From IMG/VR virus record IMGVR_UViG_2529292836_000016: a stretch of DNA of 50,087 nt; one strand, 5' to 3'. A program made the position numbers and the translations under genes. The stretch is from a virus. Lineage: Duplodnaviria > Heunggongvirae > Uroviricota > Caudoviricetes. The notes beneath the pieces are model-generated. The model did no database searches, was not told where the DNA came from, and saw only the letters and a program-made list of their open reading frames with translations. Below, in pieces: positions 18,746-45,808 of this stretch (position 1 is its first letter; every line of letters begins with the position of its first letter).

Positions 18746-18917
18746 CGGTTGTGCGCTTTGGTTGTCAGCAGGCTGCGAAACCCGGCACCCGTTTTATGAG
18801 GTGCAGCGAAAATGTAACCTGACTGATTGCGGCATGGCAAGCGGTTTTTTTGTGAGAACGGCATACTAAAAAATCCTGATACTGCTCCGGCCAGCGGTTT
18901 GCACTGGCCGGGTGTCA

Positions 18918-29467: not shown

Positions 29468-29510
29468 GGTGATAACGGTTAATCCATTACCCCAACGACA
29501 GTATTACACC
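29468..29510. repeat. Copy 1 of an about 43-bp imperfect direct repeat (core CATTACCCCAACGNCAGTNTTACACC)
   Basis: 'ggtgataacggttaatccattaccccaacgacagtattacacc'; second copy at 40255-40297. Confidence 0.6.
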
Positions 29511-29595: not shown

Positions 29596-29823
29596 ATGTA
29601 TAAAACTCGCGGTGAAAGGATCGCAGAAAGGCTGTGCTGGATATTACTACAACTGTATACCGGTAATACGGTATCGGTTAATGATATATGTCAGCGTTTC
29701 GCGGTCAGTCGCCGAACCGGACAGCGTGATTTGTTGAGAGTTGAAATTGTAACGGAAACTATTTCACCTGGAAGGGTAAGGCTGGCAAATTTGATAAGGG
29801 AACGAGTTAGACGAAATTTTTAA
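29596..29823 (+). CDS. HTH-only ORF; possibly a truncated WYL-type regulator remnant
   Basis: 75 aa 'RIAERLCWILLQLYTGNTVSVNDICQRFAVSRRTGQRDL' resembles the N-terminal HTH of the regulator at 30785-31687 but lacks a WYL domain. Confidence 0.35.
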   Translation: MYKTRGERIAERLCWILLQLYTGNTVSVNDICQRFAVSRRTGQRDLLRVEIVTETISPGRVRLANLIRERVRRNF

Positions 29824-29904
29824 TCGAATCCATATCAATTCTATAAAATATGAAACTTAACGGGAGTAAATATACACTCCCGTTATAATGCAACCTTTTT
29901 TTAA

Positions 29905-30723: not shown

Positions 30724-30784
30724 GGTAACTCCATTTTTTAGCTTACAAAAATAGCACTCAATGAAAATTATATTATCCGTGTCA

Positions 30785-31687
30785 TTACGGGGCGTTACTT
30801 GGCTGGGTGTAACGTTTCAGTGCGGATTGTATATCTTCAGCAAATTGTTGACGGATTGAGGCCGGTTGTATTACTTCGACATCCGGTATCCAGTATTTCA
30901 TTAAAGGCATTATCTGATCTGTGTGTGTTACACGTGATATCACCAGTAAATCGCCAGACCGGGAAGTATGAATTATTTCCTGTCCTGGCAATAGATGACG
31001 GTGGGTAAACCACGGAGCAACATGTGCGGAAACTGAAATAAGAACTTCGATAAGGTCTTCGCTATACCAGATACCATCTGTCTTTTCTATTTTTTCATTA
31101 ATTTCGGGGATTATCCTGAAAGAGATATTACTCATGCAAACGTCTTTGACAGATGAGATAACAAAGCTTTTTAATGTACTGTCATGGACGGCAGCGAGAT
31201 ACCACAATCCGTTGTCATTAACCAGTCTGTATGGCTCAACAGCCCGAAACTCTTTATCTTTGTAATTAAAATTTACTTTCTTCTGTGACAGGATGGCATC
31301 GGATAATACATTCAGAATTGACATGAATGATCCGCAGTTTTCGTATGGACGTTGTTTTATCAGAAACGGGTTGTTTTTCGTGTTACCTAACAAAATACTC
31401 AGTAGTCTGTCATCCCAGCGAGGGAACAGCCCTTCAATACCCAGGATGCGCGTGAAATGACGTAAATCAGCATTGCTGCGTTGACCGAGAACACCGTCAG
31501 ACAGGCGATAGCGACCATTTTGTCGAATCAGATTAAGATAGGACAGGCGCTGAGTAAGATCACGACGGATAGTTTTTTCGCAAACGTTAAATTCCTCAGA
31601 TAACTCCCGGACGGCTAGTGACTCACCATTGTTCAGGCGAGTTAATATCAATCCGAGTCGATATCCAAGTTTATCGTGCTTACCCAT
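30785..31687 (-). CDS. WYL-domain transcriptional regulator (HTH + WYL + C-terminal extension)
   Basis: 300 aa; N-terminal HTH '[21 protein letters not shown]'; central '[30 protein letters not shown]' WYL signature. Confidence 0.7.
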
Positions 31688-31737
31688 TCGTTTATCCGGT
31701 TAATGCCAGCGAAGAGGATATTTTCAGCAAAGTAACG

Positions 31738-31846
31738 GACAGGATGAGTCCACTTTTACTGTGACGGAGAAAAAAATTAACTCATTAATTATCAATATAT
31801 TAAAACATTACTGGAATCATCGAATAACATGTGGACTCATCCTGTC
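31738..31846. promoter_or_regulatory. 16-bp perfect inverted repeat pair (GACAGGATGAGTCCAC / GTGGACTCATCCTGTC) upstream of the WYL regulator
   Basis: Arms at about 31738-31753 and 31831-31846, 77-bp spacer, within the divergent promoter region 31688-32066. Confidence 0.4.
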
Positions 31847-32066
31847 CATGTGTATTTTTACGTTCAGGGTGATAATTATTATCCTGACCTGTACATGACA
31901 TGTTTTTGCTGCATATTTGACCATGCACTTTTGCCATCAAGTCGGAGAGGCAGGGGGGAACGTAAGATCCGAAGGTTAGAGAGGTTATCAGCAATTACAA
32001 TGATGATTAATATTTTCATAATATCGGAGAACATCATATTAGTTGAAATAACATAAAGGTGGTTCT

Positions 32067-32393
32067 ATGTATTTACATATCAGAAAGTATCAACTAGTAA
32101 ATGCGAGATGGCGTGATGTCATTGATCTGACAGATTATGAAGAAACAATCAGGCAGGTTGTCGGTACATTATTTGGAAATGATTTTATTGAGGTCAGCGT
32201 TGAAACAAATTGTTTTACTCTGACAGTAAACAGTACAAGCAGTAAAATACCACACGGCATACTGGTGAATATGGGGAAAAGGCTGGCGGCTAATCTCCAG
32301 AGTATCACCTGTCATGCCATGCGGATCTATCATGTAAATGGCCATCCTGACGCGCGGCAGTTATTTCACTGTTTTGATGCCGATTGCCTGTGA
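32067..32393 (+). CDS. Hypothetical protein
   Basis: 108-aa ORF, convergent with the polymerase gene. Confidence 0.4.
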   Translation: MYLHIRKYQLVNARWRDVIDLTDYEETIRQVVGTLFGNDFIEVSVETNCFTLTVNSTSSKIPHGILVNMGKRLAANLQSITCHAMRIYHVNGHPDARQLFHCFDADCL

Positions 32394-32441
32394 TTAAGCC
32401 CCCAACTTCTGTTAAAGGAGTTGGGGGAGATTTAACGGTTA

Positions 32442-35042
32442 TCAGACTGGAAGACAGAATGTCGGATATTTACGGGCTATGATATCCATCAGTGACTTCA
32501 TTCGCGGTGTTACAGAACTAAATTTCATTTGGGGTATTTTTGCTCTTACCGCATTTTTTACATCAGTCACCGTTACTGAATAGCCTTCTGACGTCAGCCA
32601 TTCAGCAACCTCTTTACAGGAATAACTTTTTTTATCTTTCAGCATAAGCCCCCATTGGCACTGAGTCAGCGCCCGGAGAAATAGTCTGACTAAAATATCA
32701 TCACTACGTTTGCTTCCGACTTTTAGTTTCATATCAGAAAACACCGTCCGGCAATAGAGAAAATCACCCCAGTCATCCCAGTCAGCCAGGGTCTTCAGTG
32801 TATGCGTTTGCCGCCAGTCGTCGAAAAGAGAGCGTTGCTGCAGAGCCTCTTCCATATTATCCCACGGGCGGGAAAACATCAGTAAATGCCCTTCATTCAT
32901 GGCGGGCTGTACGGGCTGGCGTTTGAAATCGAATTCCAGATTAAGACGGATATCCTGTTCCCGGGATACCAGATCGCTTTCCGACAGCCACATCTCACGC
33001 GTTGATATCAACGTACTTCGGGATAACGTCTGACCGGGTAAACGATTAAGGTAAAGATCTACCATATAGTCGTTATAGTCACTGCGTGGAATATCGGCAG
33101 GAGGTTTGACGCCAGCCCTGGCATGAACAACCGGTTTTCCCTGAATAGCTCTATAGGTTAACTGCCCCCGGGTTTTCATGGCGATAAGCTGGCTGACCTC
33201 ATGCTTACATGTCAACATTGATGAACCCGGATCAACAATATCGCACAGCGACTGGAAGCGGGAAGACAGTGGACCGCTCATGTTTATCTTGTCAAGTGGG
33301 CAATTTGTCAAAAAGCCATCGGTTGTGACGCTGACAACCGATGAATCAGAAGGCAAAGCATTCATGAGTTCCCCGACAACGGCCCGGATAAATCCCGTCA
33401 CATGCGCAGCAAAGAATGGCTGAGTAACCGATGATGGTGGGAGGGATCTGTTTAATCCACGGGCTGTATCAAAGGCGGTTTTGGCGCGAAGGCCCTGAGC
33501 AAGTTTACCATAAAGCGAGTTGCCAATTTCTTTCCAGAATTTCTCCTCCAGAGAACCTTTAATATGGCGATTACGGTTCTCACGGACCTGTTGAACAAAG
33601 GGAAGAAACACCGATGTTGATTCGCTGTTATGTGGGGAGGTGTCACAGATCCAGGGGACGATGATCCCATTATGGATCGTCATCTCTGCCCCGAGCGACA
33701 GAGCAAGTTCGATTTCAGGTGCCGTTGCCCATGATTCGCCACTTAATGGAAAGAATAACCCATATTGATCGGTCCGAACCGGCAGGCTGGGATAGGGAAC
33801 TGATTCCGGGAACCGAAATGTGACAAGCGCAAATCCCATTACATGCCCACAGTAATCGTCCGGATTTTTACTGAGGCGGATGTTCCCGTAATCGGGTGTG
33901 AGGATATCTAATAGCCCGGTGGTATACGCTCCAGCCAGATCGTAGTCATACCAGTGATCAGACGGTGTAACCCCCATCATAAAACACTCATTGCGTCCGC
34001 CGTGGTAACAGTTGATCGGGAACGTTTCAAACAACTCTCTTGAAGGAACACTGGCGGGGTTTTTAATCGTCCGGAATGCCTGTTTCTCCGTGAGCCAGAG
34101 TTCACGGGTTTTAATGTGTGTCCCAAGGCAGACTTCAGGAGAAATATTGTTTTCTTTAAGTGTTTTGGTGAACCGTGAAACTGCCATCGCCCCGATGGTG
34201 GCGGGGACACGATCAATCATCAGCTCCCGGGCGCAAAAATTGCGAACCTGTAAAGCATAACGAACCGCAATCTCGGCATCCCGCAGAGCATAGGCTTCAA
34301 ACCCTGCTCTGTCGCCCAGAAGATATTCACGCATATTGGTTATGGAATAAGGTGCAGGAATGGTGAGTTTGGGAAGACCCAGTAATTCACCACATTCAGC
34401 CAGACCCATACCCCCGGGAGTGATAAGCAGTGTATCGATGAAAGCTACGTTACTGCAACGCGGAGGGGAAGTTCGTTTGTCAAACATTATCTGTTCAGTC
34501 TTTACGCGACGTTCCTGCTGTTCATCAAAATCGATACCGTAACGATTTTTGAAGCTGCTGACAGTACCGCGTATTCCTTTCAGAAGAATTTTGTAGTCTG
34601 ACCAGAAATTGGCAAAGGAGGCGATATCCGCACGAATGAAATGCGCATATATATTAATAATACCGGGCCATTTTGTAATCACACCCGTTTCAAGAAGCGG
34701 TGTAATCGTTTGACAGAGAAATTCCTTAAAAGACAGCCGGGATTTTTTCTGTGAGTCAGGTGGATAGATAATGTTCGATATACCTGTATTATCGGGTAAG
34801 ACAACATAACTCTGATATGACAGAATATCATTCTGTCGTGTTTCAGGGTTGAAAACATATTCGGTATCAAAACCGATATGGAGTGTCAGGTCACTTGAAA
34901 TAACAGATACTTTTTTTGATGCAGGTGGTATCACAGGATAATCATCAAGCGTTTTAGGTCTTTTACGATTGAGCGCAGGCTCTGAAGTCACGGACTGATA
35001 CCCCGAGGCGGCAGCGAGGATGTCCTGCAAATTATTGCTCAT
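32442..35042 (-). CDS. Family-B DNA polymerase, primer-independent (piPolB-like)
   Basis: Trimmed to 'MSNNLQDIL...' (GGAG RBS); 'IGFDTEY' ExoI D-x-E, 'KEIGNSLYGKLAQ' motif B (Kx3NSxYG), 'VTTDGF' motif C-like, 'KTRG' KxY-like. About 866 aa. Confidence 0.7.
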   Translation of the reverse strand: MSNNLQDILAAASGYQSVTSEPALNRKRPKTLDDYPVIPPASKKVSVISSDLTLHIGFDTEYVFNPETRQNDILSYQSYVVLPDNTGISNIIYPPDSQKKSRLSFKEFLCQTITPLLETGVITKWPGIINIYAHFIRADIASFANFWSDYKILLKGIRGTVSSFKNRYGIDFDEQQERRVKTEQIMFDKRTSPPRCSNVAFIDTLLITPGGMGLAECGELLGLPKLTIPAPYSITNMREYLLGDRAGFEAYALRDAEIAVRYALQVRNFCARELMIDRVPATIGAMAVSRFTKTLKENNISPEVCLGTHIKTRELWLTEKQAFRTIKNPASVPSRELFETFPINCYHGGRNECFMMGVTPSDHWYDYDLAGAYTTGLLDILTPDYGNIRLSKNPDDYCGHVMGFALVTFRFPESVPYPSLPVRTDQYGLFFPLSGESWATAPEIELALSLGAEMTIHNGIIVPWICDTSPHNSESTSVFLPFVQQVRENRNRHIKGSLEEKFWKEIGNSLYGKLAQGLRAKTAFDTARGLNRSLPPSSVTQPFFAAHVTGFIRAVVGELMNALPSDSSVVSVTTDGFLTNCPLDKINMSGPLSSRFQSLCDIVDPGSSMLTCKHEVSQLIAMKTRGQLTYRAIQGKPVVHARAGVKPPADIPRSDYNDYMVDLYLNRLPGQTLSRSTLISTREMWLSESDLVSREQDIRLNLEFDFKRQPVQPAMNEGHLLMFSRPWDNMEEALQQRSLFDDWRQTHTLKTLADWDDWGDFLYCRTVFSDMKLKVGSKRSDDILVRLFLRALTQCQWGLMLKDKKSYSCKEVAEWLTSEGYSVTVTDVKNAVRAKIPQMKFSSVTPRMKSLMDIIARKYPTFCLPV

Positions 35043-35088
35043 AGTTAACTCCGAAAAAATGCCGGGAGCTGTGTCCCGGCATAAAGAA

Positions 35089-35727
35089 TCAAGATTTAAT
35101 AACATTTACTACAGATTTGAAAATATCGGTTTTGTGTGATTCATCATCTACATGGATAAAGGAAACGAGTTTCCTGCCTACTTTAATCAGGATACCGCGT
35201 TGCGTCTTTTCCACAGACGGGGTAACGTGTGCAGATAACAGACAATGTTCATGTAAATGAAGAAACTTTTTTGAGGCGTAGCCGCCATGTAATCGGGCTT
35301 GAATGTCAAGATACATATCATCAAGAGAACCGGGTTCTCCTGATTCACTCAATACCGGATAACCCTTCTTATCAAAGAGGTTAAGGATAGATTTACTATC
35401 ATGTTCGAACAGGGTAACACCGTAAATGTATTTCATTCGAAAGGTGAGGGAATCGGTGGTGTAGACCTCCTCCTGACGATTGAAATTTTTGAGACGCCTG
35501 GCTAATTCATTAAAAACAGCACGAGCAGTAGCCGTGTCCTGCAGGGTGTAGGTATAAAGTACGAAGCCATCTGTGCCGATGAGCTTTACTAAGTTGTCCA
35601 TAATCGTGATAGCGAGAACTAATGCAAAGGACAGATATTTTTCATCGTTGTCTACAGCTGTGTTTGCTGCTTCAGGAAGAATGTTCAGTGCATTATTAGC
35701 ATTATTTGCTGTGTTCTTAGTAACCAT
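35089..35727 (-). CDS. Hypothetical protein, co-transcribed between alpA-like gene and the polymerase
   Basis: 212-aa ORF, AT-rich. Confidence 0.5.
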   Translation of the reverse strand: MVTKNTANNANNALNILPEAANTAVDNDEKYLSFALVLAITIMDNLVKLIGTDGFVLYTYTLQDTATARAVFNELARRLKNFNRQEEVYTTDSLTFRMKYIYGVTLFEHDSKSILNLFDKKGYPVLSESGEPGSLDDMYLDIQARLHGGYASKKFLHLHEHCLLSAHVTPSVEKTQRGILIKVGRKLVSFIHVDDESHKTDIFKSVVNVIKS

Positions 35728-35917
35728 TTATATCACCTTTAAGTTTGTTTTGACGATGTGCATTTTCCCACTCAACAATATCATCAAGAGAGAATCGTAT
35801 AGCCCGCCCAATTCTGATGAAGGGCGGGAGTTTTCCTGGGTTGCGCGATATATCTGACGCAACCGTGGATGCGGAAAGATTAAATCTTTCTGCAAACTGC
35901 TTAATGGTTAAATACAT
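35717..35917 (-). CDS. AlpA-family HTH regulator / excisionase-like
   Basis: 66 aa; 'LTIKQFAERFNLSASTVASDISRNPGKLPPFIRIGRAIRFSLDDIVEWE' matches the AlpA/Xis pattern. Confidence 0.65.
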   Translation of the reverse strand: MYLTIKQFAERFNLSASTVASDISRNPGKLPPFIRIGRAIRFSLDDIVEWENAHRQNKLKGDINGY

Positions 35918-36059
35918 AAACCTCCGGTTTTAGAGAAGAAGAAACCACGCGGATTTAATATCAATCCACATTCTTTGATGACTTAATGCAGGGCCCTGCA
36001 GAAGCATGCAATGACAATACCGTCCTTAAACGAGTGTTGCATCAATCACGAATCACAGA

Positions 36060-37196
36060 TCATAGGTTCATTTTTGTGTCATAACTTTCTATGACCTGAG
36101 AAACCACTGCGTGTGATGTCGCTGCATTGTGAAAAGCGTAGCGACGGGTCGCCGTGAGTGAATGGTGATTTAGCAGATGGGAAGCGATTGCAATATCCCC
36201 GGTCGCCTGTAGTACCCGGGTGGCAAAGGTACGGCGCAGGTCATGCATCCGCAGGTTATCAATGTTGGCATCCCGACAAATACGGGCAAAGGTTGCACGC
36301 GGATATGCCAGAGGGCGGGCATTGTCGGTTAGTTGTGGAAAAATGTAAGTTTTGCTGAGCATCAGGTCTTGCTGGCACTCGACAACTGCAATGGCTGGAG
36401 GTGCAAGTGGGCAGGTGAAAGGGTGTCCGGACTTTGTATCAGGCAGTATGAGTTGATGCATATCCGGGTGCCAGTACTCCCATTTCAGGGTACATACCTC
36501 ACCAATACGCATCCCCGTATAAAGAGCAAGCAATATAGAATCAGCTGCCGGTGTTTGCAGCGCTGTTGCCGCGTTAATAAAGCGCGGGATTTCTGTCGCT
36601 GACAGTGTGCGATAGCGAATGTTATTTTCTTTCAGATAGCGGACATGTGTCATCGGGGAATGCGTGATCCATCCAGCACGTACTGCCAGAGAGCATATTT
36701 TGGACAATATTGCGAGGATACGGTTTACTGTTGACGGACGTAATTTTTCCCGTAAGCCAGCAGCATATTGTTCTAGTTCTCCTGCCGTGATGTCGCGAAG
36801 TTGCCGCTTGCCCCAGAACGGGCGAACGTAGAGGTTGAGTTTTGACAACTCTGACTGAGGACTCTTTTTATACAACTGCAAATCCGGTAGCCACAGGTCA
36901 TTGATGGCCTGTTCCACAGTTAATCGACGGGACTGAACCGCAAGACGATTTTTATCAGCAAGCAGTTTCATCACATGCTGACGGGCATCCTCAACGCAGA
37001 GCTGAGGGAACTGACCCAGGGTTTCATATATACGCTGATTGTTTATAGTGGCACGAAAGGCCAGCGTGATCCGATTGGGATACACCAGAGCACGCAGGTT
37101 TTGGCAGTGAATATCACGGTATTCCTGACAACCCGTGAGGGGATGTGGAAGTTGGTGAAGTGATTTGTTGCTGAAACGCAGATCCAGAATAGGCAT
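36060..37196 (-). CDS. Tyrosine recombinase (XerC/D-like)
   Basis: 378 aa; 'LRMHDLRRTFATRVL...ASHLLNHHSLTATRRYAFH' catalytic R-H-R-Y box. Confidence 0.8.
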   Translation of the reverse strand: MPILDLRFSNKSLHQLPHPLTGCQEYRDIHCQNLRALVYPNRITLAFRATINNQRIYETLGQFPQLCVEDARQHVMKLLADKNRLAVQSRRLTVEQAINDLWLPDLQLYKKSPQSELSKLNLYVRPFWGKRQLRDITAGELEQYAAGLREKLRPSTVNRILAILSKICSLAVRAGWITHSPMTHVRYLKENNIRYRTLSATEIPRFINAATALQTPAADSILLALYTGMRIGEVCTLKWEYWHPDMHQLILPDTKSGHPFTCPLAPPAIAVVECQQDLMLSKTYIFPQLTDNARPLAYPRATFARICRDANIDNLRMHDLRRTFATRVLQATGDIAIASHLLNHHSLTATRRYAFHNAATSHAVVSQVIESYDTKMNL

Positions 37197-37339
37197 CGTA
37201 TTTCTCCTGTAAATGACACTGGAAAAATACGATGTGAGGTTATAGTCTGCCAGTTACAGCTTTCACAGTTCATCAGGTGAAAAAACGCAGATTCGGATAT
37301 AATGGCAACACAATTCCATGTCGCCATTATATTAAGAAA

Positions 37340-38470
37340 CTACAGTTTCATGATCTTGTTCGCTATTTTTTCGAAGTAAACCTCATTCTTAAGAAGAGTG
37401 ATATTGTTTGTTTGAACACCCAGACCACTGGAGGTTGACTGGAAGTTGAGTGAACCACTTATCACTGTGGACTTTCCTGATAAAAAGGAAATCAACTCCT
37501 TGGAAGATGGTGCCCACTCAGGGTTTAAGAGTAATGCAATATAGATATATGTCTTACGAAGCAATTGTTCTATATCTTTTTTATGCCCTGTAGTGTTTTG
37601 CTTACCTTTAATGCAAATAGATTTGATTATGAACTCATCAGGGCTGGTTAAAGGCGTTTTAAACTCACTCAGTGATCCATCGTTATGAATGACTTCATAA
37701 GGCAGCATAGATAAAATGATCAATGCAATCATTTTAGGATGATAAAGGTAGTTATCACGAATGATTTTTCCTGCCTTCATTGTATTGAGCGTTGTTTGAA
37801 TAAATACAAAAAGATATTCAGAGCAAAAGTAACAAAACACAAGCCAGGATAGGTCAATGGATGGAATGTTAATATCCTTAGGTAGTTTGTTTAGCCAGTA
37901 TTCAGACTTCAAAAAGGTCCTGATTTCAACAGTATATTCATGCATTTTTGCGCTGAAATCAAGCATTGCTACTTGACCTGATTGTTCCGTAACTGTGTGG
38001 TCTATAAATGTTAGTGTATTGCACATTTTATCCAGCGTGTTTTGAAAACAAGAAAGGAGTTCGGCATTATTATTACCATTAACCGCAGATGAAAGTTCAG
38101 TTTTAATAAATGCATCCAGTAGCATACAGATTTCTTTCGGAATGACATTTTTACGGGATTGCTGTGAATAGAAATGTACTGCCAGTAAATTAAAGGCAGT
38201 GCACTCCTTTTTTAACCATTGTTCGAGCACTGGGACGTGCTGAAAAAAATTGATATGCTTAGCAGTAGATGCTGATGGAGATAGTACATGAAGAATATCT
38301 ACAGCAGGCTTCATTTGCAATATTTGATCGGATTCGGTAGTCGTCATTAGTTCCAGTAATTGCTGTTCAGAAAATAGTTTAGACAGGTGATCAATGTCTT
38401 TTTGGTATTGATTAAGTTTTGTTAAATTCCCCGGTATACGGGTTACATTGTTTTTCATTTTCTCGAACAT
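37340..38470 (-). CDS. Hypothetical protein (AT-rich orphan)
   Basis: 376-aa ORF, very AT-rich; no recognisable motif. Confidence 0.5.
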   Translation of the reverse strand: MFEKMKNNVTRIPGNLTKLNQYQKDIDHLSKLFSEQQLLELMTTTESDQILQMKPAVDILHVLSPSASTAKHINFFQHVPVLEQWLKKECTAFNLLAVHFYSQQSRKNVIPKEICMLLDAFIKTELSSAVNGNNNAELLSCFQNTLDKMCNTLTFIDHTVTEQSGQVAMLDFSAKMHEYTVEIRTFLKSEYWLNKLPKDINIPSIDLSWLVFCYFCSEYLFVFIQTTLNTMKAGKIIRDNYLYHPKMIALIILSMLPYEVIHNDGSLSEFKTPLTSPDEFIIKSICIKGKQNTTGHKKDIEQLLRKTYIYIALLLNPEWAPSSKELISFLSGKSTVISGSLNFQSTSSGLGVQTNNITLLKNEVYFEKIANKIMKL

Positions 38471-38976
38471 AATTTTATCCTCGTTTGAATTATTACACTG
38501 ATTTAAAAAGTAGCATGTCGTGTTAGCGAGGTAATCCTAAAACGTGAATGGCAGCAGGGGCAAGCTTGAATCTGCGTAAGGATATGGCTTGAATTTAATG
38601 GTGTAATCAGTGAGTTAGAGGCTTATAGCCATTTAAATACAATAAGTTATGATAATATATGGCGGGTGTAAATCGGTTAGTTTTTATGGTTAAAATATGA
38701 GCATTGTGAGATTTGAGATATGATGGTTTTTAAATTACATACAAGTTACCCCTGATGATCAGTATTAATACCAGAATGATACATGCGAGCAGCACCCAAT
38801 CCTGTACTATTTATGATGGCTATACAAGGCTGAAACTTTGAGTCGTATGTTGCCAGGAGGATTAATGTCCACAAGGCCCAGATAGAATGATTTCTCAGAT
38901 ATTAAAGTTGAAACTTATTAACTATGTGAGAGGCTGATATTTATTCAGTCTCTCATTTGTTTTTATCGTTTTAAAG

Positions 38977-40212
38977 TTAAAAGGAAATAAATAATGCCTT
39001 CCGCCGATGAATCAGTGTACTGATTTCTCGAAAATCAGCCTCAATACTACCAACATCACCAAAGACTTCACCACTAATCTCTCTTCGATTTTTCATGAAA
39101 TTGGTGCTTAATAAGCTTTCTTTTTTTAGTGTCACTAATTTTGGTTTTATATCGTTATAGAAATGCTTACGGCTTACCCTGATGCTATGAATCGAGTAGT
39201 AAACTGTTTTATACATCAAAAATATAAGTAACTGGCCGAGAAGATATTCTTTTTCAATGTATTTATATTGAGAGGATTTTTCGCGTTTCGCCAGGTAGAA
39301 AACATGAGGTGCGATGATGGTGGGGATGAAATCCAGTGCTGGAGAGGTTTTTGTTTTTTCTGTTTTTCTTCCGGATTGAAGATGTTGAAGTACAGAGTAT
39401 ACAATGCTTAATATTATGGCATTGCTTATATTATTAATTTCAGTTGGGTAAATATGCAGGTTGCTTATCAATTCTGAAAGGCAAAGTAAAACACCAGTGA
39501 TGTTGGGTTTTCTGCCAGAGATTGTGGTGCTGTTGAAAATGTGACGATTCTTACGACTTATATTGACAAGTTTATGAGTGCAGAACTCTATATGTTCGAC
39601 GATTTTATCTTGACTATTTTTAATGTATTTTGAAATGTTAGTGATCCGGCCATTCAACGTTAGTTCATCAAGCAATATATCATTTTTAATATTGCGAATT
39701 TCATCGCAATGTTCACATTGAGAAACTATCTCATGTAATACATAACTCGACGTATTGCGGGGTGACGCTGATATGTAATCTAAAATAGAAGGTTCGATTT
39801 TGATTTTTTGTTTGTATTTTTTAATGCACTGTTTGATTGTTTTTTGTAGAGTATTTGAGATGTGTTTTTTATATTCTTTTAGAAAATCTTGCTCTAAAAA
39901 GAGTGAGGAGAAGATCAACTGCTGGCGAGATAATTTAATCTCAGGCTTGATCAATTTAATCCGAAAAACTCTTCCCTCCAACTCATAGCTGAACATGGAA
40001 GATAAGTCATAGTGGGGTGATAAATGTTCGAGTAACGACATTCGTGTATTCATTAGCCGCTTGAATTTATGGTCAGCATACATAAGTGTTTTTTTTATTT
40101 GCTCATCATAAAGTGGGCCGATAGCGCAGTTGGCAATACTCATTCTATCCGGAGACCTCCAGTCAGCAGGGGAATCACATTGACGGTCATCATTACTATC
40201 AAAGGGCATCAA
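38977..40212 (-). CDS. Hypothetical protein (AT-rich orphan)
   Basis: 411-aa ORF, Lys/Ile/Asn-rich; no recognisable motif. Confidence 0.5.
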   Translation of the reverse strand: MMPFDSNDDRQCDSPADWRSPDRMSIANCAIGPLYDEQIKKTLMYADHKFKRLMNTRMSLLEHLSPHYDLSSMFSYELEGRVFRIKLIKPEIKLSRQQLIFSSLFLEQDFLKEYKKHISNTLQKTIKQCIKKYKQKIKIEPSILDYISASPRNTSSYVLHEIVSQCEHCDEIRNIKNDILLDELTLNGRITNISKYIKNSQDKIVEHIEFCTHKLVNISRKNRHIFNSTTISGRKPNITGVLLCLSELISNLHIYPTEINNISNAIILSIVYSVLQHLQSGRKTEKTKTSPALDFIPTIIAPHVFYLAKREKSSQYKYIEKEYLLGQLLIFLMYKTVYYSIHSIRVSRKHFYNDIKPKLVTLKKESLLSTNFMKNRREISGEVFGDVGSIEADFREISTLIHRRKALFISF

Positions 40213-40254
40213 CGTTGCCGATTATGGATCATGTCAGCTCCACACACCAGAACG

Positions 40255-40297
40255 GGTGATATATGGATCATCATTACCCCAACGGCAGTTTTACACC
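40255..40297. repeat. Copy 2 of the about 43-bp imperfect direct repeat
   Basis: 'ggtgatatatggatcatcattaccccaacggcagttttacacc'; pairs with 29468-29510. Confidence 0.6.
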
Positions 40298-40515: not shown

Positions 40516-42039
40516 ATGAACGACAAAATCAGTCAGGACACGATCAACAAAGCCCTGTGGGCCGCGTGTGATACGTTCCGTGGCACCATCAGTGCTGATA
40601 CCTATAAAGACTTTATCCTTACCATGCTGTTCCTCAAGTACATTTCAGATGTCTGGCAGGATCACTATGACGAATACAAAGAACAGTATGGCGATGCGCC
40701 GGAACTGATTGAAGCGATGATGGCCAACGAGCGTTTTGTACTGCCAAAAAGTGCCAGCTTTTATGCGCTGTACGAACGCCGCCATGAGCCGGGTAACGGT
40801 GAGCGTATCGATCAGGCGCTGCATGCGATTGAAGAAGCCAACGGCACCAAACTGAAAGATGCCGGGAAAAGCGTGTTCCAGGATATTTCGTTTAACACTG
40901 ACCGCTTGGGTGAAGAAAAACAGAAGAACACCATCCTGCGCCAGCTGCTGGAAGACTTTGCCGGTGAAGATCTTAACCTGAAGCCAAGCCGTGTAGGTAC
41001 GCTGGACGTTATCGGTAATGCCTACGAATATCTGATTAAAAACTTTGCCGCCAGCGGTGGGCAGAAAGCCGGGGAATTCTATACGCCGCCGGAAGTTTCG
41101 GACCTGATTGCAGAACTGCTCGATCCGCAACCGGGTGATACCATCTGTGACCCTGCCTGTGGTTCTGGTTCGTTGTTAATGAAGTGCGGGCGTAAGATTG
41201 TCTCCGGGCATGAAAGCCGTAACTATGCTTTGTTCGGTCAGGAAGCGATTGGCTCCACGTGGTCGCTGGCGAAAATGAACATGTTTCTTCACGGCGAAGA
41301 CAACCACAAAATCGAGTGGGGCGATACCATTCGTAACCCGAAGCTACTCGATAAAAATGGCGACCTGATGCTGTTTGATATCGTTACCGCTAACCCGCCG
41401 TTCAGTCTGGATAAGTGGGGCCATGATGAGGCCGAGAACGATAAGTTTGGTCGTTTCCGTCGCGGTGTACCGCCGAAGACTAAAGGAGATTACGCCTTTA
41501 TCTCGCATATGATAGAAACCCTGAAACCGGGAACGGGTCGTATGGGCGTAGTTGTGCCACACGGTGTGCTTTTCCGTGGCTCCAGCGAAGGTAAAATTCG
41601 CCAGAAACTGATCGACGAAAATTTGCTGGATGCGGTAATTGGTCTGCCGGAAAAACTGTTCTACGGTACGGGGATTCCGGCTGCGATTCTGATTTTCAAA
41701 AAGCAGAAAGTTGATGATAAGGTGCTGTTTATCGATGCCAGCCGTGAATTCAAGGCAGGTAAAAACCAGAACCAGCTTAGCGAAGAAAACATTAAGAAAA
41801 TCGTCAAGACCTACCGTGATGGCGATAACGTCGAGAAATACGCCTATCTTGCCAGCCTGAAAGAGATTCAGGACAACGATTACAACCTCAATATTCCGCG
41901 CTATGTCGATACCTTTGAAGAAGAGGAAGAGATCGATTTGCTGGTCGTTCACGCTGAGCGGGAGGAATTGAAAGCGGAACTGGCGAAGCTGGAAACGGAG
42001 ATGGAAGGGTATTTGAAGGAGTTGGGTTATGGCGTTTAA
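40516..42039 (+). CDS. hsdM: Type I restriction-modification methyltransferase subunit
   Basis: 507 aa; 'DPACGSGSLL' AdoMet motif I and 'NPPF' N6-adenine motif IV; overlaps hsdS start. Confidence 0.9.
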   Translation: MNDKISQDTINKALWAACDTFRGTISADTYKDFILTMLFLKYISDVWQDHYDEYKEQYGDAPELIEAMMANERFVLPKSASFYALYERRHEPGNGERIDQALHAIEEANGTKLKDAGKSVFQDISFNTDRLGEEKQKNTILRQLLEDFAGEDLNLKPSRVGTLDVIGNAYEYLIKNFAASGGQKAGEFYTPPEVSDLIAELLDPQPGDTICDPACGSGSLLMKCGRKIVSGHESRNYALFGQEAIGSTWSLAKMNMFLHGEDNHKIEWGDTIRNPKLLDKNGDLMLFDIVTANPPFSLDKWGHDEAENDKFGRFRRGVPPKTKGDYAFISHMIETLKPGTGRMGVVVPHGVLFRGSSEGKIRQKLIDENLLDAVIGLPEKLFYGTGIPAAILIFKKQKVDDKVLFIDASREFKAGKNQNQLSEENIKKIVKTYRDGDNVEKYAYLASLKEIQDNDYNLNIPRYVDTFEEEEEIDLLVVHAEREELKAELAKLETEMEGYLKELGYGV

Positions 42040-43252
42040 TTACGAGATAAATCAACTAGAATTGATGCAGGCAAGAATTAAAAGCGTGCCTCACGGGTGG
42101 CAATTCACTTATGTAGGTAAGGCGTTTTGCATCCGTAATAACTTACGGAAGCCGATTAGCGAAGAAGAACGTAGTATGAGTCCGGGCAACTATCCTTATT
42201 ACGGACCGACTAAGATCCAAGGTTATATTGGCACTTTTGAACAAGATGGAAGTTATGCTTTGATTGGAGAAGATGGTGATCACTTCCTGAAGTTTGAAAA
42301 ACATTCAATGACGCAGTTGGTGGATGGGAAATGTACAGTTAATAACCATGCTCATATTATTGAAGGAACGAAAGAGGCCTCAAGAGAATGGTTTTACTAC
42401 TATTTTATGCATAGGGACATTTTCAGTTTCTTGAGTCGGCAAGGGGCGGGTAGGTACAAGCTAAACAAAGCATCCCTTGAAAAAATGCCTTTGTTGCTCC
42501 CTCCTATCGTTGAGCAAAAGAAAATCGCCCAAATCCTGTCAACCTGGGATAAGGCGATTTCGGTGACGGAAAAGCTTCTCGCCAACAGCCAGCAGCAGAA
42601 AAAAGCCCTGATGCAGCAATTGCTTACCGGGAAGAAACGGTTGCTGGATGAGAATGGGGTGAGGTTTAGTGGGGAGTGGTGTACGTGCACTTTGTCTGAA
42701 GTAGCACATATTATTATGGGATCATCACCTAAATCCGAAGCCTACAACGATAATGGCTTAGGTTTGCCATTAATACAGGGTAATGCCGATATAAAGTGCC
42801 GAGTTTCATGTCCCAGAGTTTATACGTCTGACATTACGAAAGAATGTACTCCTGGAGATATTCTTCTAAGTGTCAGGGCACCTGTAGGTACTGTTGCACT
42901 TTCTCAACATAAAGCATGTATAGGGCGTGGTATATCGGCTATAAAATCCAAGAGAAAAATGAGTCAATCATTTCTTTATCAATGGTTTCTTTGGTTTGAA
43001 CCAAAATGGTGTTACCTATCACAAGGTAGCACATTTGAATCAATTAATAGTGATGATATAAAGACATTAAAATTATCAGTGCCCAATTTTGAAGAACAAC
43101 AAAAAATTGCCGCCGTTCTGTCCGCAGCCGATGCTGAAATATCCACGCTGGAGAAAAAACTCGCCTGCCTGAGAGATGAGAAAAAAGCCCTGATGCAACA
43201 GCTACTGACTGGCAAACGTCGTGTTAAGGTCGATGAGGCGGTTGCCGAATGA
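42029..43252 (+). CDS. hsdS: Type I restriction-modification specificity subunit (two TRDs)
   Basis: 407 aa; conserved repeats 'KKALMQQLLTGKKRL' (central) and 'KKALMQQLLTGKRRV' (C-terminal) flanking two variable domains. Confidence 0.85.
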   Translation: MAFNYEINQLELMQARIKSVPHGWQFTYVGKAFCIRNNLRKPISEEERSMSPGNYPYYGPTKIQGYIGTFEQDGSYALIGEDGDHFLKFEKHSMTQLVDGKCTVNNHAHIIEGTKEASREWFYYYFMHRDIFSFLSRQGAGRYKLNKASLEKMPLLLPPIVEQKKIAQILSTWDKAISVTEKLLANSQQQKKALMQQLLTGKKRLLDENGVRFSGEWCTCTLSEVAHIIMGSSPKSEAYNDNGLGLPLIQGNADIKCRVSCPRVYTSDITKECTPGDILLSVRAPVGTVALSQHKACIGRGISAIKSKRKMSQSFLYQWFLWFEPKWCYLSQGSTFESINSDDIKTLKLSVPNFEEQQKIAAVLSAADAEISTLEKKLACLRDEKKALMQQLLTGKRRVKVDEAVAE

Positions 43253-43932
43253 AACTGACGAAAAGCGGGCCGCTGATTGACCGGGAAATCGACTGGCTGG
43301 AAGAGGTGTTGCTGAAATACGGCAATGATGACTCTGTGCTCTGTTTCTCTGAGCTGGATGGCTTTCTGACAGCGATTGTCTCTGGCCCGAATATGATCCC
43401 CCCTAATACCTGGCTTAGTGCTATCTGGGGGCGAGGTGATTACCACCCTCGCTGGACTACTGAAAAAGAGATGACGCGTTTTGTGGGGCTGTGTTTTCAG
43501 CATATGAACGATATCGCTGGCTGCCTGTATGAGGCCCCTGAACAGTTTGAACCGATTTTCAATGGACGTGAGGTGAAGGGGAAGACATATACCATCGTCG
43601 AAGAGTGGTGTTTCGGGTATATGAAAGGTCGGTCTCTGGATGACTGGTCAGCCTTGCCAGAGGCCTTACGTCCCTCGCTGGAGGCGATAGCCCTTCATGG
43701 TATTGAAAAGAACTTCCCAGTGGTTGAGAAAATGTCACCTGTTCAATTTGAACAGAGTATTACTCTCATTCAGCCTGCGGCACTGGCGCTTTACCAGCAC
43801 TGGTTGTCGGTGAGAATGTCAGAGGCATCATCCCGGCCTGTTCCCGTGAAGGGGGCAGAAAAACTGCCCGGTCGTAATGACCCGTGTCAGTGTGGCAGTG
43901 GTAAAAAATTTAAAAAGTGCTGCCTGCACTGA
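43249..43932 (+). CDS. YecA-like protein (UPF0149-type domain with C-terminal SEC-C metal-binding motif)
   Basis: 227 aa; C-terminal 'GRNDPCQCGSGKKFKKCCLH' is a SecA-type SEC-C motif; ATGA overlap with hsdS stop. Domain call from memory, not searched. Confidence 0.6.
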   Translation: MKLTKSGPLIDREIDWLEEVLLKYGNDDSVLCFSELDGFLTAIVSGPNMIPPNTWLSAIWGRGDYHPRWTTEKEMTRFVGLCFQHMNDIAGCLYEAPEQFEPIFNGREVKGKTYTIVEEWCFGYMKGRSLDDWSALPEALRPSLEAIALHGIEKNFPVVEKMSPVQFEQSITLIQPAALALYQHWLSVRMSEASSRPVPVKGAEKLPGRNDPCQCGSGKKFKKCCLH

Positions 43933-43954
43933 CAAAGCGGAAGGGGGCTTGCTC

Positions 43955-45739
43955 ATGGCAGTGAACAATCTGGATCGTTCCCGGTGGTACATGGGAAATG
44001 TTCTCTGGTTCGGAGGCTACAACAGCAAAACGGATCGGGAGAATAACTTTGGCTTTCTCTTATCAGAGAATGGTAATGAGCTGTTTTTTCATAAGAATGA
44101 GATAAGCCGGAACTATACACCCGCTGACAATGCACCTGTGCTGTTCAGGGAAGGTACAGGTAAAAATGGTAAGCCTACGGCTTTTAATGTTCACATTCTT
44201 GATAAAACAGATGAGGAGACGGCTGAGCTCCTTATTGAATATCTCCGGGCTATTATTGAGGAGGGCGTTGATTTCGCTCGTTGGCGTTATCGTGACTGCG
44301 TTATTAATTTTCTCACTCAGTCCTTTGGCGAAAGGGCTATAATTCGGTTAGTTACCAGTGATATAGCTGCTACAAAAGTCTTGCCGCTATTTTTAAAATC
44401 ACGTAACTACGATAACCAGTTTGCACTTTTCGCCTCTGATAAGAATTTTGATGATTTGACCGCACAACAAATATCTCCTGCGGTCATGCCTTCGTCATTT
44501 ATCGATAATAACATTGATCAGTTCGCTGTTTGGGTGAAAAGGTGTTCTGCGGCTACGGATTGCCAGGGGGCTTCAACATCGGACATCATCAATGAATTAC
44601 TCAGCCATATATCTATAAGTGCTATTCTCTACCTGGCATTTTACGATTGTATAAGCAGCGAGCGGATTCTTGAACATCGGCATGATGATATAGAGAATTT
44701 TGTTCGACGTAGTTTCACGAAAAATAAAATGGATATACAACCATTTGTCCGTGATGCCTATCAGCAGAAATTCTCATCGAGAGAGCAATTTTATAAACAT
44801 TCCGTGATTAGTCCTTTTGTCAATAATTATTTGATTAAACAGAAGATGTTTAGGAAAGATTTCAGTTTTGTTAATGATATTGAGTCGAATACTGAAATTT
44901 CTTCTGACCCTGAATACTTTATTCTGAGTAAATTGTTACCGCTGATTGGGCGTAACGATGAACAGTCCGTTCTGAGTATTATTCTGCATGAGATATGGCA
45001 GGGGGTGTTGTCGGGTAAAATCCCGGTAAGCCATCCTTCTGTTTTCAAATTGTTCCCACAGTGTAGCTCATTGAAAATTCGTTCCCGGAATTTAAAATTA
45101 TCCTGTGAGGCATTTCACTGGAATGCAAAACAACCTGACGGAACGATAGAGAAAAAATTCCTTTGTCGTTCGAAAATCTGCCATGATCCGCAGGTACTGC
45201 CCGACCTCAGTCGGGATTACATCGACTTCACTATTTATGACTGGCTTTCCCACTATGGCATGACCTATCTGATTGCAGGCGAACCTTCTAAGCGGGATTT
45301 CCCAATTAAACTGGCTGGGTATTTCAATCGTATCAGAGAATTACATTCCCGCTTGCATTGCCGAAGTTGTGGGGTGCTGATGGTTCCAGATATGAAATAT
45401 GCTCGTGTGGAAGTCAGCGTCTGGGATACAAAGTCGAAAGGATTTGTGAAAAAACCTTTCCAGGCCGCGTATCGCCTGACCGTCTTTAAATGTGCCAGTC
45501 ATTCGTGCGAACAGTTTGGTATCGGGCATTACATTAATCACTGTATTGGTTACAAATGCAGCGAAATAATTGACGCCAGGGATTTGCATGAAAAATGTTC
45601 AGAAGGACGATTTATTTGTGCATCCTGTGGTTCCTGCTGTACGACGCATCAGGAGAAATTTGGTAATGTAAACAAGGGCGAAACAGAACAGGTCAAGTAC
45701 AATCGCCTTTATCGGGACTCGCCGTTCTTTTCATCATAA
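43955..45739 (+). CDS. Large protein with cold-shock-like N-terminal OB fold and Cys/His-rich C-terminal putative zinc-binding module
   Basis: Track ORF 43877..45739 trimmed to ATG at 43955 (GGAAGGGGG RBS). N-terminus 'GNVLWFGGYNSKTDRENNFGFLLSENGNELFFHKNEI...KPTAFNVHIL' follows the CSD pattern; C-terminus 'CRSCG...CASHSC...GHYINHC...CASCGSCC'. Confidence 0.7.
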   Translation: MAVNNLDRSRWYMGNVLWFGGYNSKTDRENNFGFLLSENGNELFFHKNEISRNYTPADNAPVLFREGTGKNGKPTAFNVHILDKTDEETAELLIEYLRAIIEEGVDFARWRYRDCVINFLTQSFGERAIIRLVTSDIAATKVLPLFLKSRNYDNQFALFASDKNFDDLTAQQISPAVMPSSFIDNNIDQFAVWVKRCSAATDCQGASTSDIINELLSHISISAILYLAFYDCISSERILEHRHDDIENFVRRSFTKNKMDIQPFVRDAYQQKFSSREQFYKHSVISPFVNNYLIKQKMFRKDFSFVNDIESNTEISSDPEYFILSKLLPLIGRNDEQSVLSIILHEIWQGVLSGKIPVSHPSVFKLFPQCSSLKIRSRNLKLSCEAFHWNAKQPDGTIEKKFLCRSKICHDPQVLPDLSRDYIDFTIYDWLSHYGMTYLIAGEPSKRDFPIKLAGYFNRIRELHSRLHCRSCGVLMVPDMKYARVEVSVWDTKSKGFVKKPFQAAYRLTVFKCASHSCEQFGIGHYINHCIGYKCSEIIDARDLHEKCSEGRFICASCGSCCTTHQEKFGNVNKGETEQVKYNRLYRDSPFFSS

Positions 45740-45808
45740 GTCTTCGTTCATTTTGAGTATGTCCGTAAGGACATACAGTTTCACCTCTTAGCCAAGAAGG
45801 ATTACCGG

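What the first reader, a model, noticed from the sequence alone, without database searches (positions are those of the whole stretch)
37340..40212. Two large, extremely AT-rich orphan genes upstream of the R-M operon
376-aa and 411-aa ORFs with strongly biased composition compared with flanking recombinase and hsd genes; each appears to be its own transcription unit. Typical signature of recently acquired accessory genes; function unknown.
Basis: seen in the sequence. Interest (0 to 1): 0.5.

Follow-up and report, generated by a model that had tools for sequence, protein, structure and literature searches.

The report
Swappable orphan-gene cassette in a pipolin
The two AT-rich genes are real, conserved genes of unknown function that sit in a replaceable slot beside an integrase inside a known E. 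coli mobile element (a pipolin); the slot and one of the two gene families are long-standing parts of that element, not recent imports.

Summary
Two minus-strand ORFs (37340-38470, 376 aa; 38977-40212, 411 aa, real start probably ATG 40143, 388 aa) have 35-36% GC against 47-50% in the flanks.

The window is an E. coli pipolin next to a P2-like prophage. The ORFs lie between the IntP2-Xis-p212-piPolB unit and the exchangeable type I R-M cargo.

- **ORF1.** A homologue sits directly upstream of IntP2 in 19 of 19 pipolin loci from other genomes and metagenomes where the neighbouring gene could be read. Its low GC (33-39%) is kept in all lineages. It falls into allele classes only 35-44% identical, which are shuffled between near-identical flanks.
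- **ORF2.** It is optional, and one relative sits beside a different integrase in a piPolB-less island.
- **Cassette.** E. coli strain 789 replaces exactly window 37285-40268 with a single divergent ORF1 allele.
- **Selection.** Both genes are under purifying selection (dN/dS 0.12-0.35).

"Recently acquired" is refuted for ORF1 and is at best partly right for ORF2. Function is unproven. My best guess is a conflict or exclusion role. The rival is a maintenance factor for the IntP2/piPolB unit.

The parts
37340..38470 (-). ORF1, 376 aa: pipolin-specific orphan family, predicted soluble all-alpha protein
   Evidence: ORF. 22 homologue clusters, all Enterobacterales. Only 33 hits and about 7 full-length 50%-identity clusters among 1.84 billion representatives. 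Fixed synteny upstream of IntP2. dN/dS 0.15-0.35. AF2 pLDDT 73.8, pTM 0.71. No fold match. Hydropathy peaks below 1.6.
38977..40143 (-). ORF2, 388 aa from the conserved start (open to 40212 from TTG, 411 aa): optional orphan gene, present only together with class-A ORF1 alleles
   Evidence: ORF. Conserved MSI start. 13 clusters and none added by a profile search. dN/dS 0.12-0.29. AF2 model unusable, pLDDT 40. A 46%-identical relative sits next to a different integrase plus a DUF927 primase-helicase island.
37285..40268 (-). Replaceable cassette (ORF2 + spacer + ORF1 + terminator) between conserved anchors
   Evidence: Alignment with E. coli strain 789: at least 95% identity up to and including the 26-nt motif on the hsdM side, and about 99% from about 37284 on the IntP2 side. 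The interval is replaced by a 1.3-kb segment with one 380-aa ORF1 allele, 43% identical.
37280..37344 (-). Intrinsic-terminator-like hairpin plus U6 directly after the ORF1 stop codon
   Evidence: Fold at -46.4 kcal/mol, z = -5.5. Inverted repeat I6, 14-nt arms. Similar hairpins follow ORF1 in the Edwardsiella, Citrobacter and Plesiomonas loci.
38926..38956 (-). Hairpin 20 nt downstream of the ORF2 stop codon (weak or bidirectional terminator candidate)
   Evidence: z = -1.6 only.
40272..40297 (-). Conserved 26-nt motif GGTGTAAAACTGCCGTTGGGGTAATG (DR1), the left anchor of the cassette
   Evidence: Present upstream of the first cassette gene in all lineages. It is the breakpoint of the cassette swap.
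29485..29510 (-). Second direct copy of the motif (DR2, 24/26 identical) beyond piPolB, between DUF726 and DUF2787
   Evidence: The same pair, 9-10.8 kb apart, is found in eleven further loci that reach that far: Serratia, Edwardsiella, Citrobacter, Enterobacter, Buttiauxella, Scandinavium, Intestinirhabdus and Hafnia.
37261..37273 (-). Conserved box ATGAACTGTGAAA upstream of IntP2, the right anchor of the cassette
   Evidence: Present in every ORF1-IntP2 spacer examined. Homology with strain 789 resumes here.
36060..37196 (-). IntP2-type tyrosine recombinase, the gene ORF1 always precedes
   Evidence: Pfam Phage_integrase 2e-21. Synteny.

Best explanation
The interval is an integrase-proximal, independently terminated accessory cassette. 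It lies at the hinge between the conserved IntP2-Xis-p212-piPolB unit of an E. coli pipolin and its exchangeable defence cargo (type I R-M).

Shown:
- ORF1 is a pipolin-restricted orphan family that occupies this slot in every enterobacterial lineage examined.
- ORF1 exists as deeply diverged allele classes (35-44% identity) that are swapped, sometimes by intragenic recombination, between flanks that are 90-99% identical.
- ORF2 is an optional second gene of the slot. A relative takes the same integrase-proximal position in a different island.
- Both are expressed-type genes under purifying selection, AT-rich as a family trait, predicted soluble and all-alpha, and without detectable sequence or fold relatives.

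Inferred:
- A gene that is fixed in position but present as shuffled, highly divergent alleles, in a defence island, with moron-like transcription signals, most likely acts as a stand-alone conflict protein. Candidates are exclusion or incompatibility against related elements, or an abortive or sensor-type anti-phage function.
- It is less likely to be an enzyme of the R-M system or a housekeeping recombination factor.
For: Pipolin identity and hinge position: plus the literature PMC7385651 and PMC11551731.

Fixed synteny of ORF1 with IntP2 in 19 of 19 loci from other genomes and metagenomes where the gene downstream of ORF1 could be read. The upstream cargo differs among them: type I R-M, type III R-M plus UvrD-PDDEXK, dynamin-like, patatin.

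Family confined to Enterobacterales pipolins. It is absent from phage collections. On plasmids it occurs only as a 94-codon stub dragged along with hsd cargo.

Allele classes are decoupled from the core. ORF1 is 39-44% identical where IntP2 is 89-97% and piPolB 88-95% identical. Strain 789 shows an exact cassette replacement. L014 is chimeric. dS is mosaic within the gene.

Low GC conserved across classes. Purifying selection. Terminator. No link to any particular cargo. ORF2 relative beside another integrase/replicase unit.
Against: - No hit to any PADLOC, Pfam, NCBIfam or PHROG model. The only hints were an AbiJ_NTD4 match at 16 bits against a cut-off of 34, found in 2 of 8 members.
- Universal presence with one element type, and absence from other mobile elements, is not typical of defence cargo. 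It fits a core maintenance role equally well.
- There is no signal of positive selection. Omega is below 1 in all segments except one low-divergence pair.
- No promoter was identified.
- There are no expression, H-NS-binding or phenotype data. The H10407 H-NS ChIP-seq paper holds no usable H-NS table.
- The ORF2 structure model is unusable.
Confidence: 0.45

Rival explanations
1. ORF1 (and perhaps ORF2) is a maintenance or regulatory component of the IntP2/piPolB unit. Possible roles are a recombination accessory or directionality factor, a regulator of IntP2/Xis, or a partner of the primer-independent polymerase at an origin. On this view its divergence reflects specificity co-evolving with cis sites.
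For: - Strict co-occurrence and co-orientation with IntP2-Xis-p212-piPolB in all lineages.
- The family is found nowhere else.
- The neighbouring orphan p212 evolves equally fast.
- Conserved cis elements flank the cassette.
- The pipolin literature counts two orphan proteins among six enterobacterial core genes (PMC11551731). Whether ORF1 is one of them could not be checked.
Against: - Allele classes are swapped between cores that are 89-99% identical without matching changes in IntP2, p212 or the conserved IntP2-upstream box. This is not what a sequence-specific partner would show.
- ORF1 has its own terminator and is not co-transcribed with IntP2.
- There are no iterons or tandem repeats in or around the gene.
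- No HTH or other DNA-binding domain was detected.
Confidence: 0.3
2. One reading: both genes are recently acquired foreign accessory genes, and their AT-richness is the footprint of recent horizontal arrival.
For: - GC is 15 points below the flanks.
- ORF2 is lineage-restricted and also occurs in a non-piPolB island.
- The cassette as a whole can be replaced.
Against: - The ORF1 family is present, at low GC, in all lineages back to the deepest splits (piPolB 58-63% identical).
- ORF1 and ORF2 have diverged as much as the core genes between E. coli and Edwardsiella, while the R-M cargo is 99% identical.
Confidence: 0.1
3. The ORFs are decaying relics or non-functional H-NS-silenced DNA. On this view the real feature is an AT-rich spacer.
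For: AT-rich DNA of this kind is typically bound by H-NS in E. coli (general knowledge). No promoters were found by the consensus scan.
Against: - dN/dS is 0.12-0.35.
- Full-length ORFs are kept at 35% identity.
- The genes are intact in 234 and 249 E. coli genomes.
- 66 invariant residues (ORF1, 15 sequences) and 114 (ORF2, 8 sequences).
Confidence: 0.03
4. The genes are functional accessories of the adjacent type I R-M system (regulator, anti-restriction or abortive back-up).
For: ORF2 and hsdM are divergent neighbours that share a 303-bp control region. R-M loci often carry embedded accessory genes.
Against: - ORF1 occurs with type III R-M plus UvrD-PDDEXK (Serratia), with dynamin-like or patatin cargo (Plesiomonas), and in loci where hsd lies on the other side of piPolB.
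- The hsd module travels to plasmids without the two genes.
Confidence: 0.03

Closest known systems
Enterobacterial pipolins (piPolB-encoding integrative defence islands; Redrejo-Rodriguez 2017, Flament-Simon 2020, Mateo-Caceres 2024)
   Same: The window carries the published architecture at tRNA-Leu: IntSXT, DUF2787, WYL-HTH, piPolB, excisionase-like HTH and IntP2, followed by defence cargo (type I R-M here; DUF262/GmrSD and Hhe in the matching genome beyond the window end). ETEC H10407, a published pipolin host, carries both ORFs.
   Different: The papers mention unnamed 'orphan proteins'. In the text available to me they do not describe this slot, its allele classes, the 26-nt repeat pair or the cassette replacement.
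   Same: AT-rich genes with their own transcription signals sit between conserved anchors next to an integrase and are exchanged as cassettes between otherwise near-identical elements.
   Different: In those hotspots unrelated systems replace each other. Here the slot always holds a member of one homologous family (ORF1), with or without ORF2, and none matches a known defence model.
Allelic immunity or specificity modules of mobile elements (phage repressor/immunity regions, SaPI rep-ori modules, hsdS)
   Same: A fixed position, a universal presence, deep allele classes and recombinational shuffling relative to the flanks.
   Different: No DNA-binding domain, no iterons or operators, and no cognate variable cis site were found.
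AbiJ (AbiJ_NTD4, PF18863)
   Same: A weak local match in ORF2 residues 112-256.
   Different: The score is 16 bits against a gathering threshold of 34. Only 2 of 8 family members match, and no HEPN domain is present.

Membership tests
Pipolin (the element that hosts the genes) | Encodes a primer-independent family-B DNA polymerase (piPolB) | tested here: met
   887-aa ORF at 32442-35105. The Pfam DNA_pol_B_2 match is weak (E = 0.01). RefSeq names the product 'DNA polymerase type-B family protein'. The same element is present in ETEC H10407, a published pipolin host (PMC7385651).
Pipolin (the element that hosts the genes) | Gammaproteobacterial core synteny: IntSXT, DUF2787, WYL regulator and IntP2 plus excisionase, integrated at tRNA-Leu | tested here: met
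   Annotated regions compared with the description in PMC11551731. In the window itself a P2-like prophage lies between the tRNA and the pipolin.
Pipolin (the element that hosts the genes) | Terminal att-like direct repeats derived from the tRNA | not tested
   The distal end of the element lies beyond the window.
Known anti-phage defence systems (PADLOC-DB 2.0) | Significant match to a defence-protein model | tested here: not met
   No hit for either protein. Across family members there were only single-member hits, at E = 0.008 and 0.04.
AbiJ | AbiJ N-terminal domain above the Pfam threshold, plus a C-terminal HEPN domain | tested here: not met
   16 bits against a cut-off of 34, in 2 of 8 members, with no HEPN domain.
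Phage or satellite accessory hotspot / moron cassette | A cassette with its own transcription signals between conserved anchors, replaced between near-identical elements | tested here: met
   Strain 789 against the window. Terminator.
Phage or satellite accessory hotspot / moron cassette | The slot is occupied by unrelated genes in different elements | tested here: not met
   All 19 other loci with a readable neighbouring gene hold an ORF1-family member.
Phage or satellite accessory hotspot / moron cassette | Confers a phenotype on the host (defence, exclusion or conversion) | not testable with these tools
   This needs phage-challenge and toxicity assays.
H-NS-silenced xenogeneic genes | GC content well below the host average | tested here: met
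   0.35-0.36 against flanks of 0.47-0.50.
H-NS-silenced xenogeneic genes | H-NS occupancy and derepression in an hns mutant | not testable with these tools
   The H10407 ChIP-seq paper holds no H-NS peak table in the files available.
Integral membrane effector | Transmembrane helices | tested here: not met
   The best 19-residue Kyte-Doolittle means are 1.51 (ORF1) and 1.23 (ORF2), both below 1.6.

The most novel reading that the evidence does not exclude
ORF1 is the founding member of a pipolin-specific, structurally new family of specificity proteins. Its allele classes would determine which related elements (or phages) a resident pipolin excludes or tolerates, that is, an immunity or incompatibility determinant. 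The IntP2-piPolB unit, bounded by the conserved 26-nt direct repeats, would be a separately mobile nested element that carries this determinant at its end.
Probability: 0.15. Interest if true: 0.7.

Novelty: new variant of a known kind. Interest (0 to 1): 0.42.

Why it matters
Pipolins are a recently recognised class of defence islands, and it remains unclear how they are maintained and moved. This analysis pins two of their 'orphan' genes to a precise, replaceable slot at the border between the conserved unit and the cargo. It shows that one of them is a universal but hypervariable component of enterobacterial pipolins with no known fold. That gives a concrete target for experiments, because ETEC H10407 carries both genes. 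If the allele classes govern exclusion or defence, they would explain part of pipolin distribution and add a new protein family to the conflict repertoire. If they serve maintenance, they are a missing part of the piPolB/IntP2 machinery.

Tried and rejected
- **Sequence families.** Pfam, NCBIfam, PHROGs and PADLOC were searched with single proteins. Pfam and PADLOC were also run on every family member. Nothing consistent came back.
- **PDB by sequence profile.** Nothing.
- **ORF2 structure.** pLDDT was 40, so the model was not searched.
- **ORF1/ORF2 paralogy.** BLASTP and hhalign were negative (probability 0.75%). The only shared feature is a G[KR]xNxTG loop motif.
- **Membrane-protein idea.** Rejected on hydropathy.
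- **Origin-within-gene or initiator idea.** No iterons or tandem repeats were found.
- **The 26-nt repeats as att sites of an excisable inner unit.** No single-repeat 'empty site' was found in 5426 E. coli genomes or in 70 metagenome loci. The one genome that lacks the unit (strain I4) keeps both repeats and has different deletion end points.
- **Positive selection on the variable middle of ORF1.** Omega was 0.2-0.6, and 1.2 only in one low-divergence pair.
- **H-NS occupancy from the literature.** No table is held.
- **Pipolin paper supplements naming the core orphans.** Not held.
- **Literature search by protein accession.** No paper.
Full report
**1. Observation**

The window contains two minus-strand ORFs at exactly the reported coordinates. 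ORF1 is 37340-38470 (376 aa). ORF2 is 38977-40212 (411 aa from TTG; RefSeq annotates 410 aa from ATG 40209). All seven other ORF2 family members in the alignment start at the position of Met23 (MSI...). The real start is therefore most likely ATG 40143, giving 388 aa.

GC is 0.36 for ORF1 and 0.35 for ORF2. The neighbours are at 0.50 (IntP2), 0.50 (hsdM) and 0.47 (piPolB). The 38-40 kb bins are the lowest-GC kilobases in the 50-kb window. At this composition about 7% of random codons are stops, so open frames of this length cannot arise by chance (about 1e-12 by my own arithmetic).

**2. Where this is**

The 3.3-kb interval is 100% identical to several E. coli chromosomes, and some part of it is present in 431 of 5426 complete genomes. 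The window as a whole matches strain NCCP 13717. Its layout is:

- A P2-like prophage fills roughly the first 25 kb (replication endonuclease, phage integrase, and C4 antisense RNA and isrK hits).
- It is followed by an island that carries IntSXT, DUF2787, DUF726, a WYL-type HTH regulator, an 887-aa B-family polymerase, a 212-aa orphan (p212), an AlpA-like HTH and a second tyrosine recombinase (IntP2).
- Then come the two ORFs, followed by a type I R-M system. In the matching genome the island continues beyond the window end with DUF262 genes and Hhe.

This is the published architecture of enterobacterial pipolins. They are described as bimodular: a conserved core near the tRNA-Leu site and a distal, exchangeable defence cargo (PMC7385651 and PMC11551731). 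ETEC H10407, a published pipolin host, carries both ORFs as ETEC_RS10625 and ETEC_RS10620. The two ORFs sit exactly at the hinge between core and cargo.

**3. No recognisable relatives**

Neither protein matches Pfam, NCBIfam, PHROGs or PADLOC above noise. This holds when every family member is scanned against Pfam and PADLOC. The AbiJ_NTD4 hint in ORF2 scores 16 bits against a threshold of 34 and appears in only 2 of 8 members.

Among 5.8 billion clustered proteins, ORF1 has 22 homologue clusters and ORF2 has 13, all from Enterobacterales. A profile search added nothing for ORF2. An exhaustive HMM search of 1.84 billion representatives with the ORF1 profile found only 33 proteins, about seven of them full-length. 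Profiles of both families find nothing in the PDB by sequence.

The AlphaFold model of ORF1 is usable (pLDDT 73.8, pTM 0.71). It is all-alpha with one small N-terminal beta-hairpin. It has no structural neighbour:

- Foldseek against PDB and against BFVD gives nothing at E <= 0.001.

The ORF2 model is unusable (pLDDT 40). The two families are not detectably related to each other. Hydropathy argues against membrane proteins.

**4. Context across lineages**

I collected loci that carry ORF1 homologues from species genomes and metagenomes: Serratia, Edwardsiella, Citrobacter, Franconibacter, Intestinirhabdus, Enterobacter, Buttiauxella, Scandinavium, Hafnia, Plesiomonas and unnamed metagenome contigs. 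In all 19 such loci where the downstream gene could be read, ORF1 lies directly upstream of IntP2 and on the same strand. Where the contig reaches further, the order IntP2 - HTH - roughly 200-aa orphan - piPolB follows.

What lies on the other side varies: type I R-M, type III R-M plus a UvrD-PDDEXK protein, dynamin-like GTPases, or patatin. ORF1 is therefore tied to the IntP2/piPolB unit, not to the R-M system.

In E. coli, full-length IntP2 is present in 267 genomes, ORF1 in 234 and ORF2 in 249.

ORF2 is present only where ORF1 belongs to the E. coli-type class (at least 69% identical). These loci are Edwardsiella, Intestinirhabdus, Franconibacter and Citrobacter. The Phytobacter and Salmonella members are known only from the homologue tables. 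In the other lineages hsdM or other cargo lies only about 300 bp, or up to about 1.2 kb, from ORF1.

A 46%-identical ORF2 relative, common in Enterobacter, Citrobacter and E. coli, sits in the same place relative to a different tyrosine recombinase (27% identical to IntP2). That recombinase is followed by a DUF927 primase-helicase, in an island that has DUF2787 and IntSXT but no piPolB.

Neither family occurs in phage collections. On plasmids ORF1 appears only as a 94-codon stub beside hsd cargo, cut off by IS1.

**5. AT-richness is a family trait**

In every lineage and allele class ORF1 has 0.33-0.39 GC, while the adjacent IntP2 stays at 0.48-0.51.

Between E. coli and Edwardsiella, the amino-acid identities are:

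| Gene | Identity |
|---|---|
| ORF1 | 69% |
| ORF2 | 57% |
| IntP2 | 70% |
| piPolB | 66% |
| hsdM, hsdR | 99% |

Nucleotide identity is 100% from hsdM through the intergenic region and drops only at about 40150-40250, just inside ORF2. The recently exchanged segment is the R-M cargo. The two ORFs lie on the old, lineage-specific side. This contradicts the 'recently acquired' reading for ORF1 and weakens it for ORF2.

**6. Real genes under constraint**

Pairwise dN/dS is 0.15-0.35 for ORF1 and 0.12-0.29 for ORF2. These values are similar to p212 and piPolB and clearly below 1. The ORF1 alignment (15 sequences, down to 35% identity) has 66 invariant residues, and the ORF2 alignment (8 sequences) has 114.

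**7. A replaceable cassette with deep allele classes**

ORF1 falls into classes that are only 35-44% identical to each other. These classes do not follow the core. Within one clade IntP2 is 89-97% and piPolB 88-95% identical, yet ORF1 is 39-44% identical.

A Citrobacter metagenome contig has IntP2 and piPolB 99% identical to E. coli, but its ORF1 is chimeric: 38% identical over the first 261 residues and 62% over the last 95.

The clearest case is E. coli strain 789 (19 genomes share its allele). It has the same hsdM side, at least 95% identical up to and including a 26-nt motif. It has the same IntP2 side, about 99% identical from window position about 37284. Window 37285-40268 (ORF2, spacer, ORF1 and terminator) is replaced by 1.3 kb that carries a single 380-aa ORF1 allele, 43% identical.

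Segment-wise dS values within ORF1 are mosaic, which indicates intragenic recombination. Omega is highest in the poorly conserved middle (residues 111-203) in four of the seven pairs for which it could be computed (0.19-1.21). The only value above 1 (1.21) comes from one low-divergence pair.

**8. Transcription signals and cis elements**

ORF1 is followed immediately by a long hairpin plus U6 (37344-37280, z = -5.5). Comparable hairpins are present in the Edwardsiella, Citrobacter and Plesiomonas loci. Directly after it lies the box ATGAACTGTGAAA, conserved in every lineage upstream of IntP2. ORF1 is therefore not simply the first gene of the integrase operon.

ORF2 has a weaker downstream hairpin. 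No good sigma-70 promoter was found by the consensus scan.

The left anchor of the cassette is the motif GGTGTAAAACTGCCGTTGGGGTAATG (40272-40297). It is conserved upstream of the first cassette gene in all lineages, even where the flanks cannot be aligned. A second direct copy (29485-29510, 24/26 identical) lies beyond piPolB, between DUF726 and DUF2787. The same pair, 9-10.8 kb apart, is found in eleven further loci.

I tested whether these repeats are att sites of a nested IntP2 element, and found no support:

- No single-copy 'empty site' was found in 5426 E. coli genomes or in 70 metagenome loci.
- The one E. coli genome without the unit (strain I4) keeps both copies. Its deletion runs from 29623 to 40152, ending 10 nt before the conserved ORF2 start.

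The role of the motif stays open.

**9. Interpretation**

The following is shown. The finding is an integrase-proximal accessory cassette of a pipolin. ORF1 is a universal, pipolin-restricted, fast-evolving orphan family with shuffled allele classes. ORF2 is an optional companion whose family also occurs beside another integrase/replicase unit.

The following is inferred. A fixed slot, deep recombining alleles, separate transcription signals, persistent AT-richness and a defence-island setting are the pattern seen in conflict or specificity genes (exclusion, incompatibility, abortive or sensor-type defence). I rate that reading at about 0.45.

The main rival is a maintenance or regulatory role for the IntP2/piPolB unit, which I rate at about 0.3. 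The strict linkage supports it. Against it, allele swaps occur without co-variation in IntP2, p212 or the conserved cis boxes, there are no iterons, and no DNA-binding domain was detected.

A link to the R-M system, pseudogene status and recent acquisition of ORF1 are each contradicted by the data above.

**10. Novelty and score**

The host element is known. The genes are annotated only as hypothetical. The slot structure, the allele classes and the repeat pair are not described in the pipolin papers I could read. This is a new variant of a known kind (an accessory cassette of a mobile element), built from protein families with no known fold.

Interest is moderate at 0.42. It offers a well-defined experimental target in a tractable strain, but there is no functional evidence yet.

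Noticed in passing
window 40272-40297 and 29485-29510 (minus strand): A 26-nt direct repeat (24/26 identical) brackets the 10.8-kb DUF726-WYL-piPolB-p212-Xis-IntP2-ORF1-ORF2 unit. The pair, 9-10.8 kb apart, recurs in eleven further loci from eight genera, and the upstream copy alone is present in all lineages, while the flanks diverge. In one Plesiomonas locus the second copy lies on the cargo side instead. It may be a recombination or other cis site. No empty site was found.
   Followed up: partly
L026 (E. coli strain I4, NZ_CP195978.1), equivalent to window 29623-40152: One of 5426 E. coli genomes has a 'piPolB-less pipolin'. The whole unit is deleted between DUF2787 and hsdM, and both 26-nt repeats are kept. 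The junction GGAGGTCT|GCGATCC lies 10 nt upstream of the conserved ORF2 start codon.
   Followed up: yes
window 37261-37273 (minus strand): The box ATGAACTGTGAAA, about 65-80 nt upstream of IntP2, is conserved in every pipolin lineage examined. It is probably an IntP2 promoter or operator element.
   Followed up: partly
window 40516-49093, plus L029 (Klebsiella plasmid pKqu-1): The type I R-M cargo has two genes embedded between hsdS and hsdR: a YecA/SEC-C protein (43249-43932) and a 620-aa cold-shock-domain protein (43877-45739). hsdM and hsdR are 94-99% identical across pipolins whose cores are only about 70% identical. The module also occurs on IncFIB plasmids, where it drags along a 94-codon ORF1 stub cut by IS1.
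   Followed up: partly
L007 and L010 (Intestinirhabdus alba BIT-B35, two scaffolds): One genome assembly holds two different pipolin units (piPolB 99% and 71% identical to the window) with different ORF1 classes (A plus ORF2, and C). The 2024 pipolin survey reported no double pipolins in Enterobacterales. A mixed culture or an assembly artefact has not been excluded.
   Followed up: no
L023 (metagenome contig ERR1891491_286) 5450-10385: An ORF2 relative (46% identical) lies directly upstream of a different tyrosine recombinase and a DUF927 primase-helicase, in an island with DUF2787 and IntSXT but no piPolB. This looks like a parallel 'integrase + replicase + orphan' unit.
   Followed up: partly
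window 35089-35727 (minus strand): The 212-aa orphan between the HTH/excisionase and piPolB is as fast-evolving as ORF1 (25-47% identity between lineages) and has no family match. Unlike ORF1, it mostly tracks the core.
   Followed up: partly
ORF1 residues 288-295 and ORF2 residues 231-239 (410-aa numbering): Both families have a conserved loop motif, G-[KR]-x(1-2)-N-x-T-G (N, T and second G invariant in both families), between two helices. It is the only similarity that hhalign finds, and it is not significant.
   Followed up: partly
window 1-25065: A P2-like prophage is co-integrated next to the pipolin. It has Rfam hits to C4 antisense RNA (18607-18694) and isrK (18730-18804). ARAGORN finds no tRNA in the window, so the tRNA-Leu lies beyond the prophage.
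   Followed up: partly
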